The notes below the pieces were generated by a model that had not been told where the DNA came from, ran no database searches, and saw only the letters and a list, made by a program, of their open reading frames with translations. A stretch of DNA of 64,000 nt, from NCBI GenBank assembly GCA_023920165.1, contig CP089274.1, positions 5,456,001 through 5,520,000 of the forward strand, given 5' to 3'. The DNA comes from Curvularia clavata. Taxonomy: Eukaryota. The position numbers and the translations under genes are program-made. Shown here piece by piece: positions 36,731-48,912 of this stretch (its first letter is position 1; the number at the start of each line of letters is the position of its first letter).

Positions 36731-39700
36731 ATGGTCTTTAAGAGCTTCCACCTCGCGCGCCAGAGTCTTGCCAAAGGCTTCACTCACGGTTATGCTCAAT
36801 CAGTAGTTGCTGGTGTCAGCCAGAACAACCCCCTTGCTTCTCTCCAACACGACCGCTTCCGCAAAGGCCTCAAAAATCAACATGCTTTCACATCAACATC
36901 GTCGACCTCGAGTACCCTCAAGGCACTCACGGCTGCACAACCCGACCCACAAGACTCAGGTCTAGCCGCATACTACACTGCCTGGCAAAAGCACCAACGA
37001 ACCGAGGACAAGGAATGGTCGCAGTTCCAGTTCCGCAAGCTCATCGAATGGGACCCTTCCAGTGCCAAAAATGTGGCTGAGATCAAGGAAAGCAGCGTTG
37101 CGATCGAGGAGACGGCAGAGCCAGTTCCGGCTCCTGCTCGTAGTTCCGTCAACCGCGCATACAGCACCAGCCAGGTAGAGGATTTCAGGAAGGCTGTCGG
37201 GGGTGAAGAGGCGCAGGAGATTGCATTGGCCCAAGTAGACGAGGCAATCGCACAAGAGGTGGCAAAGCACAAGGCAGAGAACGAATCTGTACAAGCCGTC
37301 GAAGAGGTTTCTGCTGTTGAAGAGGTCCGCTCGCAATCCCCTGGAACCGTCGCGGATACTCTGGTAGAATCACCAACCTTCAGCCACACCGAATCAACCA
37401 TCGCCGCCAGCCCGATTGAAGCACACGATGAGTACACGGTACAACTCCAGAAGCTGGCCATCAACCGCAACTATGCCGAAGTCCCAGCCGTTTTCGAGGC
37501 TATGCTTCATTCGGACATCAAGCCATCAGTCACTGCGTACAATGCCTTGCTGTCCGCAGCGATACACCTTCCCCGTGCTCAGCATCAAGTTGTTCCCAAG
37601 GCTCTTGATGTTTACTCGGACATGCTTCGTCGCCGGGTCGTTCCCGACACCACTACATACACCACTCTCCTCGAGCTCCTTTCCGTCAGATCATTGGAAG
37701 TCATCTCTCTGAAGCAGAGCTTTGAAGACAGGCGACTTCGATATGGCGGAATGGAAGAAGAAGGAAGGTTTATGCTTCAGTCACACGAGACTGACTACGC
37801 CATCTTGGCCGAGGACGGGTCGCTGTCAATCGCTGTGAGGCTTTTCGATGCTGCTGTCAGCAGCGAATCTAGCCGTACCTTCTCGGAAAAGACTTACCGA
37901 TTGCTTGTTACTGCATGTGCGGAGAGCGACCGCGTAGAGGACATGGTGCGAATCTATTCGCACATGGAATCTCGTGGCGTAACTCCAGCTGCCGACATGT
38001 TCGTCCCCATGATCCACGCTTTCGGCAAGTCTGGTGACTTGAGGAGCGCGGTTGAGTGCTACGACGAATACAAGGCTCTCGCCATCTCGAACGACAATGG
38101 TGAGATTGACATGACCAGGAAAGACAATGACGTATACGCCGCCCTGGTCAAAGCGTACACGGTTTGCGACCGCCTAGAGGGTGCTCAAAAGTTTGTAGCG
38201 AAGATTGAAAGCGGACTCACTGCGCCCGAGGACGTCACTTCAGTTCGCGATATCGTAGGTCTCAAGGCTTTCCTTCCGGAGTGGTTGAAAAACGGCTCCT
38301 TCGAGGCTGCCTACGTACACGCTACCGAGTACCTCAGCCCACAAGCTCGTCAGATCGCCATGGCTGCCATTTGCATCAAGGCTGCCGACCGCGACGCTGT
38401 TGAGGTTGCTACTCAGGCTTTCGATGACCTGCCGGCCGAGGTTGACCTCTCTCGACCGGCTATGGCCATGGGAGCCATGCATATCCGCACTGGAAACATT
38501 GAAGCAGCCGAGATCTTTTGGAGGATGCTCGAGCTGTCACCCACGAAGCCCGACTTCATTGAGCCTACTGCCATGCACAGCATTGCGCTGATCGGCAGTG
38601 GTCAAGCGGAGCGCGGCCTTCGTCAGGGTCGTCAGATGTTTGCTCGCATACGGGACTCTCAGTCTGGCTCTACTCAGGCCAAGATGGAGATCGTAGAGCA
38701 CATTGACGAAGCTATCGAGGTTATGGGTCAGTTCATGATGAAGCGTGGCATCTTCCTTCCGCCGCGGGCTAGCATGGAACTGATGTGGACGATGATTGAA
38801 AACGGCGGCCTAGTCACCCCAGTTGCTCACCACCTACTTGCTGGAATGGGACCTGAGGCCGTTGTTCAACTCAACTTCGACGACATCACGCTCCTGATGC
38901 AGGTCCAATCCGGCATCCTCCTTCAGGAGGCCGAAGTTGATGTTGCTCACGCTGCACGGTTCGCCCATCTCCTCGAAGTCATCACTGCCACTGGCTCGCC
39001 AGTCAACAAGACGACATCCGGTCTGGTTGAACAGGTCCTCGCCAAGCTTGACAGAGGTGATCTTCAGCATCGTTGGTACGCTTACAAGCACTCTTCCCCA
39101 GAGGCTCTGTACTCTCCAGCACCGTTTGCTGGCTACCCTGTCCAAACGCCAACCACTCCCGCAGTCCCTACCTTTGAGGACCAGCACGATCCGTATGCTG
39201 CGTCCACTGATAACAAGGGATCAGTTGCTATCACCGAACTGCTGGAAAAGACCCACGGACGATCATCTACTCACCTCAATGAGGCTTTGATGAAGTTCAG
39301 GAACATGCGCCGGGCTGGCCGACACCCTCGCTTCTTCACTTATGCGAAGCTCATCACTGCTGCTGCGAAGGAAGACCGCTTGACCCTGGCCCACGACATC
39401 CTCAACTTTGCCAAGCAGGATGTTCCCCTCCTACCTCAGTACCGCATTGTCCGATACGGATGGGTCACTATTCTGGATGCCATGGTCGCTGCCTGCCTCA
39501 CTTGCAACCAGCGTGAGCTCGCCGGAAGGTATCACCAGGACCTGCTTGAGATGGGCGCTGCTCCTACTGCCAACACCTTTGGTCTTTACATCACTACCCT
39601 CAAGGAGTCTACCAAGACCTTTGATGAGGCTACCGAAGCCGTCAAGATCTTCCTCCGCGCAAAGGCTGAGGGTGTTGAGCCTTCATCGTTCCTTTACAAC

Positions 39701-40603
39701 GCTCTCATTGGCAAGCTCGGAAAGGCCCGTCGCATTGACGACTGCCTTTTCTACTTCTCTGAGATGCGCAACCTTGGTATCCGTCCTACTTCTGTCACTT
39801 ACGGCACCATTGTCAACGCTCTTTGCCGTGTGAGTGACGAGAAGTTTGCCGAGGAGCTGTTCGAGGAGATGGAGAGCATGCCTAACTACAAGCCTCGTCC
39901 TGCTCCTTACCACAGCATGATGCAGTTCTTCCTGACTACCAAGCGCGACCGCAGCAAGGTTCTCAGCTACTATGAACGTATGCGTGCGAAGCGCATCGAG
40001 CCTACTACGCATACGTACAAGCTACTGATTGACACGTACGCTACGCTTGAGCCTGTCGATATGGAGGCTGCTGAGAAGGTCCTTGAGCAAGTCCGCGCTG
40101 CCGGTGCTGTTCCGGAAGCTGTCCACTACTCGTCCTTGATTCACGCCAAGGGCTGTGTGATGCACGACATGGAGGGTGCTCGTCAGCTTTTCGACACTGT
40201 TCTTAGCGACAGCCGCACGCGTCCCCAGGCCTGCCTCTACCAGGCGCTGTTCGAAGCCATGGTTGCCAACCACCAGATTGCGGACACGGAGCCTGTGTTG
40301 GTTGACATGCGCGCTCGTGGTGTTGAGATGACTCCCTACATTGCCAACTCATTGATTCACGGCTGGGCGCTCGCTCACAACATTGAGAAGGCAAAGGCCA
40401 TTTACGACTCGGTTCCCGAAAGCAAGCGTGAGCCCAGCACCTACGAGGCCATGACGCGTGCCTACATGGCTGTCGAGGACCGCTCGGCTGCCATGACTGT
40501 CGTCAACGAGGGACTGTCTCGCGGCTACCCTGCCGCTGTCGCTGGCAAGATTCTCGAGCTTGTCGGTGGTGGTCGCGCCCCCGTACCCGAGGTCACTGTC
40601 TAG
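36731..40603 (+). CDS. Large mitochondrial pentatricopeptide-repeat protein (Ppr5-like)
   Basis: 1290-aa ORF with many 35-aa PPR units (PSVTAYNALL, PDTTTYTTLL, PSSFLYNALIGKLGK, PTSVTYGTIVNALC, PTTHTYKLLI); basic N-terminal presequence-like segment. Confidence 0.88.
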   Translation: MVFKSFHLARQSLAKGFTHGYAQSVVAGVSQNNPLASLQHDRFRKGLKNQHAFTSTSSTSSTLKALTAAQPDPQDSGLAAYYTAWQKHQRTEDKEWSQFQFRKLIEWDPSSAKNVAEIKESSVAIEETAEPVPAPARSSVNRAYSTSQVEDFRKAVGGEEAQEIALAQVDEAIAQEVAKHKAENESVQAVEEVSAVEEVRSQSPGTVADTLVESPTFSHTESTIAASPIEAHDEYTVQLQKLAINRNYAEVPAVFEAMLHSDIKPSVTAYNALLSAAIHLPRAQHQVVPKALDVYSDMLRRRVVPDTTTYTTLLELLSVRSLEVISLKQSFEDRRLRYGGMEEEGRFMLQSHETDYAILAEDGSLSIAVRLFDAAVSSESSRTFSEKTYRLLVTACAESDRVEDMVRIYSHMESRGVTPAADMFVPMIHAFGKSGDLRSAVECYDEYKALAISNDNGEIDMTRKDNDVYAALVKAYTVCDRLEGAQKFVAKIESGLTAPEDVTSVRDIVGLKAFLPEWLKNGSFEAAYVHATEYLSPQARQIAMAAICIKAADRDAVEVATQAFDDLPAEVDLSRPAMAMGAMHIRTGNIEAAEIFWRMLELSPTKPDFIEPTAMHSIALIGSGQAERGLRQGRQMFARIRDSQSGSTQAKMEIVEHIDEAIEVMGQFMMKRGIFLPPRASMELMWTMIENGGLVTPVAHHLLAGMGPEAVVQLNFDDITLLMQVQSGILLQEAEVDVAHAARFAHLLEVITATGSPVNKTTSGLVEQVLAKLDRGDLQHRWYAYKHSSPEALYSPAPFAGYPVQTPTTPAVPTFEDQHDPYAASTDNKGSVAITELLEKTHGRSSTHLNEALMKFRNMRRAGRHPRFFTYAKLITAAAKEDRLTLAHDILNFAKQDVPLLPQYRIVRYGWVTILDAMVAACLTCNQRELAGRYHQDLLEMGAAPTANTFGLYITTLKESTKTFDEATEAVKIFLRAKAEGVEPSSFLYNALIGKLGKARRIDDCLFYFSEMRNLGIRPTSVTYGTIVNALCRVSDEKFAEELFEEMESMPNYKPRPAPYHSMMQFFLTTKRDRSKVLSYYERMRAKRIEPTTHTYKLLIDTYATLEPVDMEAAEKVLEQVRAAGAVPEAVHYSSLIHAKGCVMHDMEGARQLFDTVLSDSRTRPQACLYQALFEAMVANHQIADTEPVLVDMRARGVEMTPYIANSLIHGWALAHNIEKAKAIYDSVPESKREPSTYEAMTRAYMAVEDRSAAMTVVNEGLSRGYPAAVAGKILELVGGGRAPVPEVTV

Positions 40604-41690
40604 TCGGCTCTCTGGTCTCACCTTTATGTCTTCTTTGATTCACCGCCTTGTGGCGTTTCAATCATACACTTTTTTTTACTCGATTTTTCCTTTAGACGGC
40701 CGAACGAACCCAAAAAGAATTTTTCAAAACAGCCCCCGCATTGCTGTAGAGCGGTCTTTTTTTTCGCTCCGGCAGCGCGGCTGGGCTACCAATACCTCAA
40801 TGTTTTTCTGCAATGTCGCTTCTCTTGTGTTCTAGCGACGGCGTTTTTCATCTCCCCGGTTCTCGGTTTTTGTACCTTTTTTCCAGTTTCTGTCTGTTGT
40901 TTCTTTTTTTCTTCAGATCCGAAGCGAAACGATATCCCCGCAATTCAGCAATGGGAGCTGGTGGGTCGGTTAGGTTATTTTTTTCTGGCGTCCTGTGTGT
41001 AAACAATGGGACGGGTAAAAGGGAGAGAAGGGCCTGGTTGGCTGACCTGATTCTAGTAACAGGGCTGGGTTATAGGAATGGGAGATGTCATGTAATGTAA
41101 GAACCACCATTAGCATACGTTGTTATGTTTTTTTTTTACTTGGAGCATGGGCAGCATGATGGTGTTTTTTTCCTGGTGGGAATTTGTAACAATACCCTTT
41201 GGATGTATACCATCTCTCCTCTCTAGAGTTATACAAGGTGGTGGTTGGTTGGTTGGGTAGATAGTATATGTCTTTCTTGCCTGTAAAAGGTATGAAAGAC
41301 GTGTCTGATGAACGAAAATGAAAAATACATATAACAAAGTCTTGATCTTCTAGTGGTTAAAGATATAAATTAACTCTGTGCGTGTTCAGTAGAACAAAAG
41401 CATGGTGTGTCGAAGGAAGTGTAGCACAACACCCTTTCCCCTTCGTTTTAGTAAATCAGTCGATGATTACAAAAAAGGGTGTAAAATTAGTATCATCAAT
41501 CGTAAAGAATCTATGGGTTCCCCAAATGCCTTCGCCGTAAATGCAACTATATACACATATCTGGCTGTAGGCCGCCTATCACTCACTCATCTCCACTTCT
41601 CTTGTATCTCAAGGTATCATCCAACTCCTCCGTTTACTCCCGTCGCTGAATACACAGCCCGCGCTTCCCGCGATACCATGTCATTCCGGC

Positions 41691-42102
41691 CTAGTTGTAA
41701 TTCCTCGTCTCCGTCGCTTGATCCGCTTCGCGCGCAAGGCGGTTCTCGTTAGCAGCTTGTTGCAGCGTTTGATTATTGGTCTGGCGTTTCTGCGCATCGA
41801 GTTTCTTCTGGAGGTCACCGGACGAGGATTTATTTGCGCGGGCCTGAGTTGTGTTGTGTTAGCTCTTTATATCAGCGTAGCCATTTGCTATCGCAAAAAC
41901 GTACCTCGGCAGCGGCGGCGGCAGCGGCTTTGGGGTCGCTCTCTCTGTTGCTGTCGCCTAGCGTGCGCGGTGGCCCTCCGACCTTTGGTTTTGCTGCATT
42001 GCTTGGTACGGAGGCCCTTGTGGCGGGCTCAGGCGCAGATCCGAGTGTGCGGCCTTGTCCTTCGAAGTTGTCTTTGGACTGTTTACCACAGAGGTTGCCC
42101 AT
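41691..42102 (-). CDS. Small probably myristoylated protein with SHP and VIM-like motifs (SVIP-like)
   Basis: Exons 42102-41905 and 41843-41691 (GTACGT...CTAAC...CAG) give 116 aa: MGNLCGKQSKDNFEGQGRTLG...DPKAAAAAAAEARANK...ETRNYN*. Confidence 0.8.
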
Positions 42103-42889
42103 GTGGAATGTAAGCCGTAGGGCAGGACTTTGGTGGCAATGGTAGGCGGGCGAGAGGAAGAAGGTAAGTAAAGAGAGAGGATATCAGGGCGACGTATGAC
42201 GATATCGTAAACCAGTTGTGGCTGTGCTACTCGAAGCTGGTGGAAGAAAGGGTCCAGCAAAGGTCAGCCTCGTCGGCGCGCGGGGGAAGGGCAAGGTCCA
42301 GTGCACTGATAGTTGGAGACGCGTGAGATTGGCGCCAAGTACCCGTCTCTTGGACTCCCATTTCCAGCGATGCCGCTTTTCCCTGCCGCCAACCCGTCCA
42401 TTTCTCTCCATTGGCTTCCAACAACGGGCTCGTCAGCGGGCCGGCGTGAATGATGCATATGGCAGCACTCAGTGCCATTTCACGTGAGTGGGTACGCTAG
42501 AATCGTAGTGCACACTGACATGCCGTGCCAGTTGCTACAACGGAGACAAGGCGGTGGCTCGCATGATACGGCCGTGTGAATATCATCGCCGTAGAGAGGG
42601 CTGCGAAGCGGTAGTCGAGGCTTCTTGCTCGGTGAAGAGCTTCACATTTCTTTTTCTAATGAGAGCGAGGCAACGTGCAGGCACACGACAGGCGATACGT
42701 CAATTCTGGAGCTGAAGAGATGGGCCAATGACGACAGATACAACTAAAGCCTTGAGCCCCCACGTGATTGGTGCGCGGGCTGCTCGCGAGACGCTAATCC
42801 ACATGCATCTTCTTTCCCTCGAGCGCTATGCATCCACCTAAGTTTTCAAATCTCTCTGATTGTAGAAACAAGTCGAAGAGGCTTGTCCA

Positions 42890-45333
42890 ATGAAGAGATC
42901 GCGTTCACGTACGTCAACCAAATCTTCCTTTCACGTCACCGCTGCTCCAAACCATGCAAATTCGAAGGTCCAGCTTGAGTACCGAGATGGCCTGCCCTGT
43001 AACACTTCGATAATGCTGGCCAACGAGCCAGTGACTCTGCCCCTCCAGCACAAGAACTCAAAGACGCTCAAAATGATTAACAGCTGTGCAGATTGCGACC
43101 GCGATTCAGCCTTTGGCGACGACGACGACAATTACCTCCGGGTTACAGAATCAATGTTTCCCACGCCTGTCGTCGCGGGCACAAAGCGGGATGCTACTGC
43201 GCTGCGAGATGACGCCCCCAAATCCACCCAGACAACGGGCCCGAGCTCACAAGAGTACCCTCTTGATCCCCAGCTGTGTTGCAAGAGGTGCCCGGAAAAC
43301 TGCCCAGAGGCTCCCGACGTGCGCCCGGCCAAACGCAAAGCTTCGGCTCACAAAGTTGGTGAATTTCACCATGTCACCAAAGACTCGTACCACGCTACCG
43401 AGCCAGAGGGCCAGTTTCCAGATGATTGCTTCGAAGCATTTTGCCAGGAGTGCAATCTAGAGTCGTCTTCCCATCTAGATTGCTCACTGCAGTGTCCTGC
43501 CGACGACTGTGCCGAGGACGACGCCTGCTTTGATCCCCGATGCACTCAGGAGAACGAACACTGTACGGACAACTGCATCGACCCGGACTGCACCAAGGTG
43601 GCTTGTCCAGACCAACCATGCTTCTGTCAGAAGTGCAACGCTCCACCTTGTCCCATGGGTGATCCCAACAACGAATGTCACTTCGCGCACACAGCTCCTA
43701 CACCCGTCGGTACTGTATATTGTTACGACGATGCGCCATGTCACTTTCAGCAAGGGCTTCATTGTGACCAAGGCAGTCTTTCATCCTTTGAGGCATATCC
43801 TTGCTTCTCCCAGAACCACGGCTACAATCCCGTCGACGATGTCACGACAGCCTCAAGCGCCCCGACCCCAGCCCTGTCGAACAGCAATTACACTTCGCTT
43901 GAGAGTGCATTCACAGCTGAACACTCACCAGCACCTGGCAAGACAGCCTTTGCACCACACTGTTTTCTGAACGTTTCTGGAGACCATTGTCACATTGACA
44001 ACTCGTGCTGCCACGGTCCCCGTCGAGCATGTGGCGACGCTCCTTCTGCATCCCAACAGCAATTGGATATGTGGAACGCATCCGTGGCACAGGGAAACGG
44101 GCTCGCTAACAACTTCATGAACTTTGGGTTCAATCCTAGTCTGCCTACTAGCCCGTTGTCAGTTGGCCAGAACTCCATACATTCAGCGAACCCTTTTAGC
44201 ATCGAAGATCCTGTCCTGGGCTTCCATGATCAGTCGTGGATGCTGACGGAATCCGCATTTCCGAATGCTTATCAGCCAGCGAGCTCGTTTGCTGGCATGA
44301 ACAAGCTTGATTTTCTTGCTTCTGCTGTCCAAAACGATATTCTGCGCCCAAATACCACAACTTCCTCCGGCTCAAGTACCCTGCCTGGTGCTGCTACTCC
44401 TGCTATTACCGGAGATACGCAAGCATGCGTTTGTAAATGGTAAGTTGAACTCGAGTATCTTGCGTTGCGGCCTAGCGATTACCTGGTTTTGTCAGACGAC
44501 TCTGGAACCTCCTTGCTATCTACAGTAATACAACATGTATACTAACCTTCATTTAGGCAACATGGTCCTGGCATCCTTTGTTTGGCCGTCTTCGACACCC
44601 CTGAGGCGCTTCACAAACACATTAAGACGGCACATGTGGACAACTGTGCGCACTGCTTCTGCCAGTGGGAAGGCTGCGATGCCTCAGCCAAAGACTTCAA
44701 GCAGCGCTCCAAGCTTTCTCGTCACCTCCTTGGCCATGCTGGCTACCGTCCATACGCATGCAGCTACGAAGGCTGCAACAAGACGTTTGCCACTAACCAG
44801 GCTAAAGACAATCACGAGAGGACGCACACGGGCGAACGTCCCTATGTATGCGATCGCTGCGGATATACAACAACCACGCATACACAGTTGCAAACCCATA
44901 TTAGCGCCCTGCACGAGGGCAAGAAGCCGCATAAATGCCGCTTCTGTGAGTTTACCTGCGCGGATTCAAGCAACTTGAGCAAACACGAAAGAACACATCA
45001 GGTAAGCCTTACACTCTTTCTCATTTCCATGCCCCTTTCTGCTTTCCCTGCTTCTCCCTTCAATGTCTGAAACTTACTAACAAACAAAAACAGACTCTCC
45101 GCCCTTACCGCTGTCCCCATACAAACTGCACCTTCAAGCCCGACTGCCGATGGGAAAATCTAAAGCGTCATCTCCGCCGCTCGGGTCACTGTCCGCAACT
45201 GCTCGTCGAGACCAGCAACGAGTACAAGTTATACCGCGAGAGTGTCCGCCATGAGATTGACGAGTGGCACAAGCGGAACGAGGACGGGCTGGGCAAGATG
45301 GGAAGGAGGAAGGGTGGGAGGACTGCCAAGTAG
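42890..45333 (+). CDS. C2H2 zinc-finger transcription factor (six fingers) with Cys-rich N-terminal region
   Basis: Introns 44440-44556 and 45002-45093; fingers CKW..C..H..H, CQWEGC, CSYEGC..HTGERPY, CDRC, CRFC, CPHTNC; stop at 45333. Confidence 0.88.
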
Positions 45334-46966: not shown

Positions 46967-48912
46967 TTAAGGGCTTGGAGGTGCTCGATCACCTCGACTG
47001 CGGTGCCCTCCAAGGGCAGCGCTGTCGCCCTCAATGGTCTTTCGCCAGTGCTGCGGCAAGCAGACGCAGACCAAGGGGAAGGCCTTGATCTCGCTGTCCT
47101 CGATTGGCAGTCGTCCACTTCCGTTGCTCACACCCGAGTCGCGCTGTTCGGCTTTTCGTGCCTCCCATTGCTCTGCTGTCTCGGATAGCCTGACACCTGT
47201 GGCCCAACCATCATCCCAGATGCCCACGACCTTGAGCATGTCACCTCTTTCAAGCTCAAACTCATCTCCGGCGCGAGGCTGGTAGGCCCAAAGCGTGGCA
47301 ACAGTGTCGTTGGGGTGAATATCGTCTTGGGAGTAGTAGTCCTTGAAGAATTGTAGCTGTTCGGACTGGGCGGAAGTGAGGCCGTCTGGGCTAGACAAGC
47401 TGCGGGACTGGCCAGAACCGGAAAAGGGCGAGGAGTTTGTTCCTAGAGCCGATTGACTTGAAAGGGAACCCTGGCGCTTTGGAAGTCCAGCAGCCAGCGC
47501 ACCACGGATCGATTCTGGTGAGTCGTAGGCACCGATCTGAGAGCCACCGTACGCAGTCAGACGGGCCTCCCTATCGGTATGGTCGGCCAACGACGCCGAT
47601 TCCTCCAAGGCTGACATTCGCTGGACTCGGGCACCTGGGAGCATGGTGGCCGAGTGATTGCCGTCACCACCAAATGCCATGGGAGGGGGAATGTTGCCTT
47701 TGGAAGAGTGATGTCGTGATGGTGATGGGGTATTGAAAACACTGCCGGCCTGGCTGTACTTCTTTCGACGCATTCGCATACAGAGGAAGATGACGGCGGC
47801 GATTATCAAGGCAGCACCGATGAGGGACCCAATCACAATACCAGCAATAGCACCCCCTGAAAGACCCTTTCCTGAATTTTGGCCACCGGATGATCCTCCA
47901 GCTGTAGAGCTTGGTGAGACAGAGGAGGTACCTGTTGGAAAAACAGGTGGCATAGATACGGTGGTGGGAAGGTGGACGTTTTGGCAGCGGGCTTCGACGT
48001 TGGCATTGACGCAGCAAGTGTCGGTCGAGTTGGTAGTGCTCTTGGAGCAAAAGAGGCAAAGTCCCTCGAGGTTGTTTTGGAAACCGCATTCGGTGGGCTC
48101 ATTTTTTACAGCTTCGATGCAACTGTTGCTGAGCGCGTCTGCAGGGTTGGAACAGCGGGTAAAGTCTGAGCGGATCTGAGGAATCGCGTTGTTGCCCGGG
48201 GTGCCACACAGGTCCGGACTTGATATTATCACCTGTTCACTGATGGCAAAGTCGGCCTGGATATATGGTCAGCTCTGCGGTCCAGTGTGATTGTGCAATT
48301 CACGTACGCATGCATCAGCGCACAGTGGTGTTGCGGCCTGGTCGCTGAGGCCACACGACTGCTTGGATGACTGGACAATGGCATTACACAAGACTGTTGT
48401 TGTAAAGCGAGCATAGAGATTGGTGGTGTTGGTCAGGTTGACTCTTGAGCAGCCTAGGATGTCTTCGTATCTGAAGAGAGGTTAGTTTTGTCAACAGTGT
48501 GTAGGGGTAGAGGACTGACTGTCGCTGCGCGTAACCGGTCTCTATGTAGTTTTGCAGGCCCTGGTCGAATGACTGGGTGTTTGACACAAACTTGAGGAAG
48601 GGACTGGTAGTGGTTAATGTCTGTTCTGGTAGGGCAAAGCGGAGGGGGCTTGACGTACAAGTTGCCAGTCAGGTTGGTGTTGATCGAGGCCGAGGCAAAG
48701 GCTGGGCAGGTGGTTGAGCCCTGGAGTGACACGCAGCCCTGCTGTGCCATTGTCGAAGGCAGTGAAGCGGCAAAGACAGTCAGAAGAGCCGTGGCGGCGG
48801 CTTTTGTGCCCAGACGTAGTTGCTTCTGGCGACGGGCGGAGCTAGATGATCGACAGCAATGTCCGGAGCAGCGTGGATGGCGAGCATCATGGCCGGGCGG
48901 GCATGGGGACAT
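46967..48912 (-). CDS. Single-pass membrane protein: Cys-rich ectodomain, TM and cytoplasmic SH3
   Basis: Introns 48604-48658, 48471-48519 and 48257-48307; hydrophobic ALLTVFAASLPSTMA; TM LSGGAIAGIVIG...RMRRKK; SH3 LWAYQPRAGDEFELERGDMLKVVGIWDDGWATG...AFPLVCV. Confidence 0.85.

What the first reader, a model, noticed from the sequence alone, without database searches (positions are those of the whole stretch)
41691..42102. Lipid-anchored microprotein carrying two Cdc48/p97-binding motifs (SHP box and VIM)
Seen: the spliced 116-aa protein starts MGNLCGKQS, contains FEGQGRTLG plus a degenerate second copy GGPPRTLG, and contains K-AAAAA-AA-EA-R, which is completed only across the exon junction (the ORF track misses it). 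Established: Gly2 with a nearby Cys is a myristoylation/palmitoylation signature; FxGxGxxLG is the SHP box; R/K-x5-AA-x2-R is the VIM; SHP and VIM bind different sites on the p97 N-domain; animal SVIP is a small myristoylated VIM protein. Inference: this is a minimal membrane tether that binds Cdc48 bivalently, a potentially uncharacterised fungal adaptor.
Basis: partly seen in the sequence, partly recalled or inferred. Interest (0 to 1): 0.7.

Follow-up and report, generated by a model that had tools for sequence, protein, structure and literature searches.

The report
Fungal SVIP with extra Cdc48-binding boxes
This small fungal gene belongs to a known family of lipid-anchored partners of the protein-unfolding machine Cdc48/p97, but it carries extra docking motifs that the human member lacks, which may let it grip Cdc48 at two sites at once.

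Summary
The minus-strand gene has a 61-nt intron, skipped in assembled contigs of 3 of 4 runs laid. The 116-aa product equals a database protein that passes the Pfam SVIP cut-off (PF15811, 28.5 bits against 27). It is therefore a filamentous-ascomycete member of the known SVIP family, not a new adaptor class. What differs from human SVIP is the N-terminal half, which holds two G-R-x-L-G boxes. Box 1 is a textbook SHP box here. Alone, without the VIM, it was modelled onto the SHP site of this fungus's Cdc48 N domain (0.72, best control 0.01; like complexes are solved). Two qualifications: only 20 of 75 diverse relatives keep the strict FxGxGxxL pattern (64 keep F-x3-G-R-x-L), and this VIM starts with Lys where 60 of 75 have Arg. 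SHP-plus-VIM binding is already shown for Wss1. No binding or acylation was measured, and my literature searches found no study of a fungal member. Verdict: a new variant of a known kind, modest interest.

The parts
41905..42102 (-). Exon 1 (residues 1-66): acylation signal, boxes 1 and 2, most of the VIM
41844..41904 (-). 61-nt phase-0 GT..AG intron inside the VIM, with a GCTAAC branch site
   Evidence: sequence; skipped in contigs of 3 of 4 runs; position looks conserved: of 111 read-through relatives that lack the downstream helix, 102 have Val (a GT donor read in frame) right after the AAxAAE stretch
41691..41843 (-). Exon 2 (residues 67-116 and stop): last Arg of the VIM, H4-like helix, C-terminal helix
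   Evidence: (Pfam SVIP positions 37-65)
42088..42102 (-). N-terminal Gly2 / Cys5 signal, predicted myristoylation plus palmitoylation
   Evidence: Gly2 75 of 75 and a Cys at positions 3-6 in 75 of 75 representatives (the set was chosen for matching from residue 1, so partly circular); the modification itself is inferred
42040..42066 (-). Box 1, residues 13-21: SHP box (FxGxGxxLG)
   Evidence: pattern and shuffles; conservation F13 61, G15 23, G17 69, R18 70, L20 60 of 75; modelled on the SHP site of Cdc48
41956..41982 (-). Box 2, residues 41-49: SHP-like repeat with Val in place of Phe; this copy has Pro where most relatives have the second Gly
   Evidence: G43 50, R46 63, L48 65, G49 68 of 75; position 45 is Gly in 49 and Pro in 15; binding not modelled
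41838..41931 (-). VIM, residues 58-68 (K-x5-AA-x2-R), split by the intron
   Evidence: position 58 Arg 60, Lys 11; A64 74, A65 73, R68 73 of 75; helix 57-69 in the AlphaFold2 model
41784..41819 (-). Post-VIM helix, residues 75-86 (G-x-L-x3-L-x2-Q), counterpart of the H4-like helix of SVIP
   Evidence: G75 71, L77 72, L81 72, Q84 67 of 75; helix 76-86; inside the Pfam SVIP match 49-98; equivalence to H4 is inferred from bioRxiv 10.1101/2023.05.15.540864
41697..41777 (-). C-terminal helix, residues 89-115; less conserved (L93, R104), shorter in Pezizomycetes
41353..41690 (-). 3' untranslated region as far as the assembled contigs reach
   Evidence: contigs end at 41369 (X1) and 41353 (X5)

Best explanation
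This is the single SVIP-family gene of a Pleosporales mould. The protein has no folded domain and no substrate- or ubiquitin-binding module. Steps: (1) Gly2 is myristoylated and Cys5 palmitoylated, fixing the protein to the cytosolic face of a membrane, by analogy plasma membrane or vacuole/endosome (inferred). (2) Box 1 docks as an SHP box on the Nc lobe of a Cdc48 N domain (modelled, not measured). It starts eight residues from Cys5, so it would hold that N domain close to the bilayer (inferred). (3) The VIM helix fills the Nn-Nc cleft of the same or a neighbouring N domain; the 37-residue coil between them allows either (inferred from family data). (4) Box 2 may give a weaker second SHP contact, and the post-VIM helix an H4-like contact (inferred). 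The result is a multivalent grip that brings Cdc48 to membranes and occupies both N-domain docking sites, so it should compete with Ufd1-Npl4 and Shp1 on the protomers it binds.
For: Spliced in 3 of 4 runs. Pfam SVIP 28.5 bits, cut-off 27; 102 of 105 relatives hit SVIP. One locus in the genome. Mean top-residue conservation in 75 representatives: box 1 0.66, box 2 0.68, VIM 0.74, H4-like 0.65, against 0.40, 0.29 and 0.31 for the linkers. F-x3-G-[RHQK]-x-[LIV] occurs in 64 of 75 against 0.2 in shuffles. Residues 5-36 alone against the genome's own Cdc48 N domain scored 0.72 in three runs, best of 3 controls 0.01; the mark was reached by 51 of 78 solved complexes and 2 of 108 mismatched pairs; runs agree in at least 86% of contacts, partner pLDDT at least 54. 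The model's contacts include the counterparts of 6 of the 7 CDC48A residues named for the PUX5 SHP crystal structure (PMC13078151; my mapping by offset). A family profile searched against all PDB sequences returned 3 sequences, all on SHP-type boxes of p47 and PUX5, at non-significant E 0.4-2.3. Animal SVIP is myristoylated at Gly2, binds VCP through its VIM and recruits it to lysosomes and plasma membrane (PMC7820495; PMC3164199).
Against: Nothing was measured. The complex model can pass from memory of solved SHP complexes, and the tool is uncalibrated for peptides and disordered chains. The strict SHP pattern is in only 20 of 75 representatives, and in 0 of 15 Pezizomycetes, 0 of 20 Sordariomycetes and 0 of 5 Leotiomycetes picked; only 5 of the 15 Pezizomycetes keep the Phe pattern. 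The review consensus calls both glycines invariant (PMC5389986). Box 2 lacks the aromatic residue and here also the second Gly. The VIM has Lys for the first Arg. The Pfam score is only 1.5 bits above the cut-off. VIM binding, box 2 binding and simultaneous binding were not modelled.
Confidence: 0.6

Rival explanations
1. It binds Cdc48 only as animal SVIP does, through the VIM and the H4-like helix. The two G-R-x-L-G boxes bind some other partner, and the SHP match in this lineage is incidental.
For: Across the family the conserved core is P-G-R-x-L-G in both boxes, not FxGxG: G15 is kept in 23 of 75 and P16 in 55 of 75. 10 of 15 Pezizomycetes lack the Phe pattern. Box 2 has no aromatic residue.
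Against: F13 is kept in 61 of 75. A Wss1-like gene of this genome has a box of the same relaxed form (F-x-S-x-G-Q-x-L-G) just before a VIM (L085), so the relaxed form occurs in a family whose yeast member binds Cdc48 by an SHP box. The model places box 1 on the SHP site.
Confidence: 0.2
2. In this lineage the roles have shifted: the Lys-type VIM is weak and the strict SHP box carries most of the affinity, so binding is SHP-led and not evenly bipartite.
For: A strict box 1 occurs in 7 of 11 representatives with Lys58 against 10 of 60 with Arg58 (Fisher p = 0.003). UBXD1's VIM lacks an Arg and is described among its weak contacts.
Against: The two traits may simply mark one clade; the test ignores relatedness. 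The pivotal last Arg (PMC5389986) is kept.
Confidence: 0.12
3. It is an acylated membrane microprotein whose main job is not Cdc48 binding; the Ala-rich VIM-like helix serves something else.
For: The VIM pattern arises in 3.5% of shuffles. The Pfam score is marginal. No fungal experiment was found.
Against: 102 of 105 relatives hit SVIP, best E 2e-13. The AA and Arg positions are nearly invariant. The two best-conserved motif classes both point to the Cdc48 N domain.
Confidence: 0.05

Closest known systems
[quoted passage not shown]
   Same: Small, Gly2 acylation site, VIM, helix after the VIM, no catalytic or substrate-binding domain. The protein passes the family cut-off.
   Different: 116 against 77 residues. 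Two SHP-type boxes lie between the anchor and the VIM, outside most of the Pfam match (49-98). [quoted passage not shown] The VIM begins with Lys here.
Yeast Wss1 metalloprotease (WLM family, PF08325)
   Same: SHP box followed by a VIM, both contributing to Cdc48 binding (PMC4559962). 14 of 105 relatives give weak WLM hits (best E 7.7e-05, below the cut-off); in the 3 such proteins whose match was shown, it covers WLM positions about 123-189.
   Different: Wss1 is a protease with SUMO-binding motifs. This protein has no protease domain and has an acylation signal.
p47/Shp1, Ufd1 and plant PUX5 SHP boxes
   Same: Box 1 fits their FxGxGxxL consensus. Ufd1 and Shp1 each carry two SHP boxes (PMC10641518). 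The family profile's only PDB hits were p47 and PUX5 boxes.
   Different: Those proteins pair SHP with a UBX or UBX-like domain and with substrate-binding domains; here the partner motif is a VIM and there is no substrate-binding domain.
UBXD1/UBXN6 VIM-H4 module
   Same: VIM followed by a short helix; multivalent, substrate-free p97 binding.
   Different: UBXD1 is 441 residues with PUB, UBX and lariat domains; no direct sequence test against it was run.
S. cerevisiae Ygl108c
   Same: Recalled, from no call, as the budding-yeast PF15811 member. A table lists it in a palmitoylation test set with Cys4 annotated 'by similarity' (PMC3929663).
   Different: Orthology was not tested here; no Saccharomycotina sequence was retrieved.

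Membership tests
SVIP (PF15811) | Profile score at or above the Pfam gathering cut-off | tested here: met
   28.5 bits against 27, residues 49-98; 6 of 7 proteins in that call passed; each exon alone scores about 17 bits
SVIP (PF15811) | Small size with N-terminal Gly2 for myristoylation | tested here: met
   116 aa, Gly2; 75 of 75 representatives. Sequence feature only
SVIP (PF15811) | Actual N-myristoylation and membrane location | not testable with these tools
   needs labelling or imaging
SVIP (PF15811) | VIM, R-x5-AA-x2-R helix | tested here: inconclusive
   This copy has Lys at the first position, so the Arg form is not matched; 58 of 75 representatives match it; helix predicted
SVIP (PF15811) | H4-like helix after the VIM | tested here: met
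   Conserved helix 76-86 inside the Pfam match; equivalence to H4 is inferred
SVIP (PF15811) | Binds p97/Cdc48 through the VIM | not tested
SHP box (box 1) | [FW]-x(0,1)-G-x-G-x2-L consensus | tested here: met
   Residues 13-21 of this protein. Family-wide only 18 of 75
SHP box (box 1) | Docks on the Nc lobe of the Cdc48 N domain, away from the cleft | tested here: inconclusive
   Model score 0.72, best control 0.01, at the expected site; like complexes are solved, so the pass may be from memory; not a measurement
SHP box (box 2) | [FW]-x(0,1)-G-x-G-x2-L consensus | tested here: not met
   Val for Phe and Pro for the second Gly in this copy
Wss1/WLM proteases | WLM metalloprotease domain | tested here: not met
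   No WLM hit for this protein; WLM genes lie elsewhere in the genome

The most novel reading that the evidence does not exclude
SVIPs of filamentous ascomycetes are membrane-anchored, four-contact clamps for Cdc48 (two SHP-type boxes, VIM, H4-like helix) that shut both N-domain cofactor sites and damp ATPase activity at a chosen membrane. Their boxes would define a relaxed SHP consensus, F-x3-G-R-x-L-G, without the first 'invariant' glycine. This box-bearing form may be the older one, trimmed in animals: the N-terminal 55 residues alone drew SVIP clusters of Basidiomycota, a Debaryomyces-named yeast cluster and diatoms in a feature search (scores 0.77-0.82, lead only).
Probability: 0.25. Interest if true: 0.6.

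Novelty: new variant of a known kind. Interest (0 to 1): 0.36.

Why it matters
Animal SVIP controls where p97 acts (lysosome stability, autophagy, ERAD inhibition), but how so small a protein does this is only partly understood. A single-copy fungal member gives a genetically tractable model. If the boxes bind as modelled, the family uses a Cdc48 site that human SVIP is not known to use, and the relaxed box form would widen searches for Cdc48/p97 cofactors that strict-consensus scans miss. The family, both motif types and their pairing are each known, so a specialist would find this a useful annotation and not a surprise.

Tried and rejected
Other splice choices: an enumeration of GT/AG pairs gave many alternatives; only 41904-41844 appears in the laid contigs. 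Run listing: no RNA holder listed on record among 24 runs; raw-read run X21 laid no reads, so strand, start sites and expression level are untested. Genome search with PF15811 found nothing, not even this gene, because the intron splits the match; uninformative. The protein search found only this locus. Reaching yeasts, Basidiomycota, plants or animals by sequence: the three homologue searches listed 87, 120 of 435 and 120 of 631 hits, and every source-named row was a Pezizomycotina fungus; the representative search listed 150 of 578 unnamed hits. The distribution of the boxes outside Pezizomycotina is therefore open. Atlas feature hits for residues 1-55 scored below 0.9 and are leads only. 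The AlphaFold2 monomer has pTM 0.29, so no fold search was run. Reading as a Wss1 fragment rejected: no protease domain, and WLM genes exist elsewhere. Literature: SVIP+Cdc48+yeast 38 papers, 25 listed; YGL108C 4; SHP box+VIM+Cdc48 23, 22 listed; Ygl108+Cdc48 0; SVIP+SHP 16, 15 listed; SVIP+fungi+VCP-interacting motif 0; Cdc48+cofactor+Aspergillus+myristoylated 0. No listed title concerns a fungal SVIP. Searches were too loose to inform. The paper that defined the VIM family (Stapf et al. 2011, PMC3207395) is not held; it may already name a yeast SVIP homologue. Earlier scan findings: none.

Full report
Gene structure. The finding lies on the minus strand of a fungal genome (32.4 Mb, 8 contigs). 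Exon 1 runs 42102-41905, a 61-nt phase-0 intron 41904-41844, and exon 2 41843-41691. The intron has a GTACGT donor, a GCTAAC branch site and a CAG acceptor. Contigs of 3 of the 4 runs laid skip exactly these 61 bases; the fourth laid no reads. The three runs are only guessed to be RNA, but their contigs also skip an intron of the next gene, which argues for cDNA. The spliced product has 116 residues and is identical to P0004, which its source names as an uncharacterised protein of Curvularia clavata. A protein search of the genome found only this locus.

Motifs and chance. In 200,000 shuffles the strict SHP pattern appeared 5 times, the VIM pattern 7,045 times and both together never. The VIM pattern is thus cheap in an Ala-rich protein, and it begins with Lys, whereas the published consensus begins with Arg and names the last Arg as pivotal (PMC5389986, passages).

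Family. Each exon alone hits Pfam SVIP weakly (about 17 bits). The whole protein scores 28.5 bits against a cut-off of 27 over residues 49-98. Of 105 aligned relatives, 102 hit SVIP at E<=0.01. A feature search of the ESM Atlas also returned SVIP clusters first (0.94, 220 of 256 features shared). Named relatives are Pezizomycotina; by my own knowledge of the genera they cover Dothideomycetes, Sordariomycetes, Leotiomycetes, Pezizomycetes and several lichen-associated or early-branching classes. So the protein is a member of a catalogued family.

Conservation. From the 150 listed hits of a profile search (578 in all) I kept the 75 that match from residue 1 to profile position 105 or beyond; the other 75 were dropped as read-through, fused or partial. 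All 75 have Gly2 and a Cys at positions 3-6 (partly circular through the selection). At the VIM, position 58 is Arg in 60 and Lys in 11; A64, A65 and R68 are kept in 74, 73 and 73. Box 1 keeps F13 in 61, G17 in 69, R18 in 70 and L20 in 60, but G15 in only 23. The strict pattern is therefore found in 20 of 75 and the relaxed F-x3-G-[RHQK]-x-[LIV] in 64 of 75, against 0.2 in shuffles. Among 39 close full-length hits, this protein included, 32 have the strict box. Among named hits I picked, the strict box is in 0 of 15 Pezizomycetes, 0 of 20 Sordariomycetes, 0 of 5 Leotiomycetes and 2 of 6 others. Box 2 is as conserved as box 1 (0.68 against 0.66; linkers 0.29-0.40) but has Val, Ile or Thr in place of Phe. 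The AlphaFold2 model shows coil for 1-56 and helices 57-69, 76-86 and 89-115, with no tertiary fold (pTM 0.29).

Does box 1 bind Cdc48? The genome has a Cdc48 gene whose N domain is split over two exons; an intron-free locus, L007, is identical to it over 168 of 168 residues. I folded that N domain with residues 5-36 only, leaving the VIM out so that any pass would belong to box 1. The score was 0.72 in three runs, best of 3 controls 0.01; the mark was reached by 51 of 78 solved complexes and 2 of 108 mismatched pairs (on eukaryotes 71 of 105 solved and 2 of 126 unrelated pairs); the runs agree in at least 86% of contacts and the partner's pLDDT is at least 54. The contacting partner residues are 12-15 and 17-21. 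With an offset of 25 residues (my mapping), the Cdc48 contacts include the counterparts of 6 of the 7 residues named for the PUX5 SHP crystal structure (PMC13078151, passages). Like complexes are solved, so this shows likeness to SHP complexes and not that this copy binds; the tool is untested on peptides. A profile search of PDB sequences gave 3 hits, all on SHP-type boxes of p47 and PUX5, none significant (E 0.42-2.3). A Wss1-like gene of this genome has the relaxed box form just before a VIM (L085), which suggests, without proving, that the first glycine can be lost.

Mechanism. Shown here: the splice, the family match, the conservation pattern. Modelled: box 1 on the SHP site. Inferred from animal SVIP: Gly2 acylation, VIM binding and recruitment of p97 to lysosomes and plasma membrane (PMC7820495, passages; PMC3164199, abstract and introduction). 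SHP and VIM sites are distinct on the N domain (PMC5389986; PMC10767929, passages). Human SVIP has a VIM and an H4-like helix and inhibits p97 ATPase with an IC50 near 72 nM (bioRxiv 10.1101/2023.05.15.540864, passages), and is listed as incompatible with p47 and Ufd1 (PMC3791797, passages). The most likely reading is a lipid-anchored, substrate-free cofactor that grips Cdc48 by box 1 and the VIM, perhaps also by box 2 and the H4-like helix, draws it to a membrane and crowds out other N-domain cofactors (confidence 0.6). Rivals are VIM-H4-only binding with the boxes serving another partner (0.2), SHP-led binding that offsets a weak Lys-type VIM (0.12; 7 of 11 Lys-type against 10 of 60 Arg-type have the strict box, relatedness not controlled), and no Cdc48 role (0.05).

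Comparison and novelty. It is an SVIP by profile, Gly2 and post-VIM helix; its VIM is off-consensus at one position. SHP-plus-VIM binding is established for Wss1 (PMC4559962, passages), and twin SHP boxes for Ufd1 and Shp1 (PMC10641518, passages). I recall, from no call, that yeast Ygl108c is the budding-yeast family member; I saw only a palmitoylation table entry for it (PMC3929663, passages) and did not test orthology. PMC7403338 (passages) does not mention SVIP. Seven informative searches listed no study of a fungal SVIP or of SHP boxes in the family; I read only listings for most hits, the library lacks most subscription papers, the defining VIM paper was not held, and no supplements were read, though motif alignments in them could bear on this. 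The extra boxes are the new element. Their range outside Pezizomycotina is open; Atlas feature hits to Basidiomycota, yeast and diatom SVIP clusters are leads only. Verdict: real gene, known family, new variant; interest 0.36.

Noticed in passing
window 42484-42531 (+) and 42102-42841: In runs X1 and X5 one contig joins this gene's transcript to sequence reaching 42794-42841 and skips a 48-nt plus-strand GT..AG intron. The 5' ends of this gene and its divergent neighbour probably overlap or abut; the contig cannot show two transcripts apart.
   Followed up: partly
window 42890-45001 and beyond (+): Divergent neighbour: a Cys/His-rich protein with several C2H2 zinc fingers and a weak Zap1 finger hit (E 0.003), possibly a Zap1/ZafA-like zinc-responsive regulator (name recalled). 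Introns at 44440-44556 and from 45002; an in-frame 183-nt intron at 42909-43091 was skipped in X1 only. Its leader holds several short upstream ORFs, one of 19-22 codons completed only across the 48-nt intron.
   Followed up: partly
window 36731-40603 (+): Convergent neighbour: a 1,290-aa intron-free pentatricopeptide-repeat protein. Its contigs run to 41263-41338, close to this gene's 3' end at 41353-41369.
   Followed up: no
L085 (G000 contig C3, about 1,543,400-1,543,800): A Wss1-like gene with a relaxed SHP-type box followed by two VIM patterns; another WLM gene (L084) has a VIM pattern near the end of its open frame.
   Followed up: partly
P0346: A 127-aa SVIP-family protein of Microdochium nivale is named 'DNA-dependent metalloprotease WSS1' by its source, probably a mislabel caused by the shared SHP and VIM motifs.
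   Followed up: no
P0262, P0233, P0250, P0181, P0198, P0221 and relatives: Pezizomycetes members have a shorter C-terminal helix ending in a conserved L-V-W-D, and often lack the Phe of box 1.
   Followed up: partly
window 46967-47953 (-): Exon of a single-pass membrane protein with a cytosolic SH3 domain (weak Pfam hits below cut-off).
   Followed up: no
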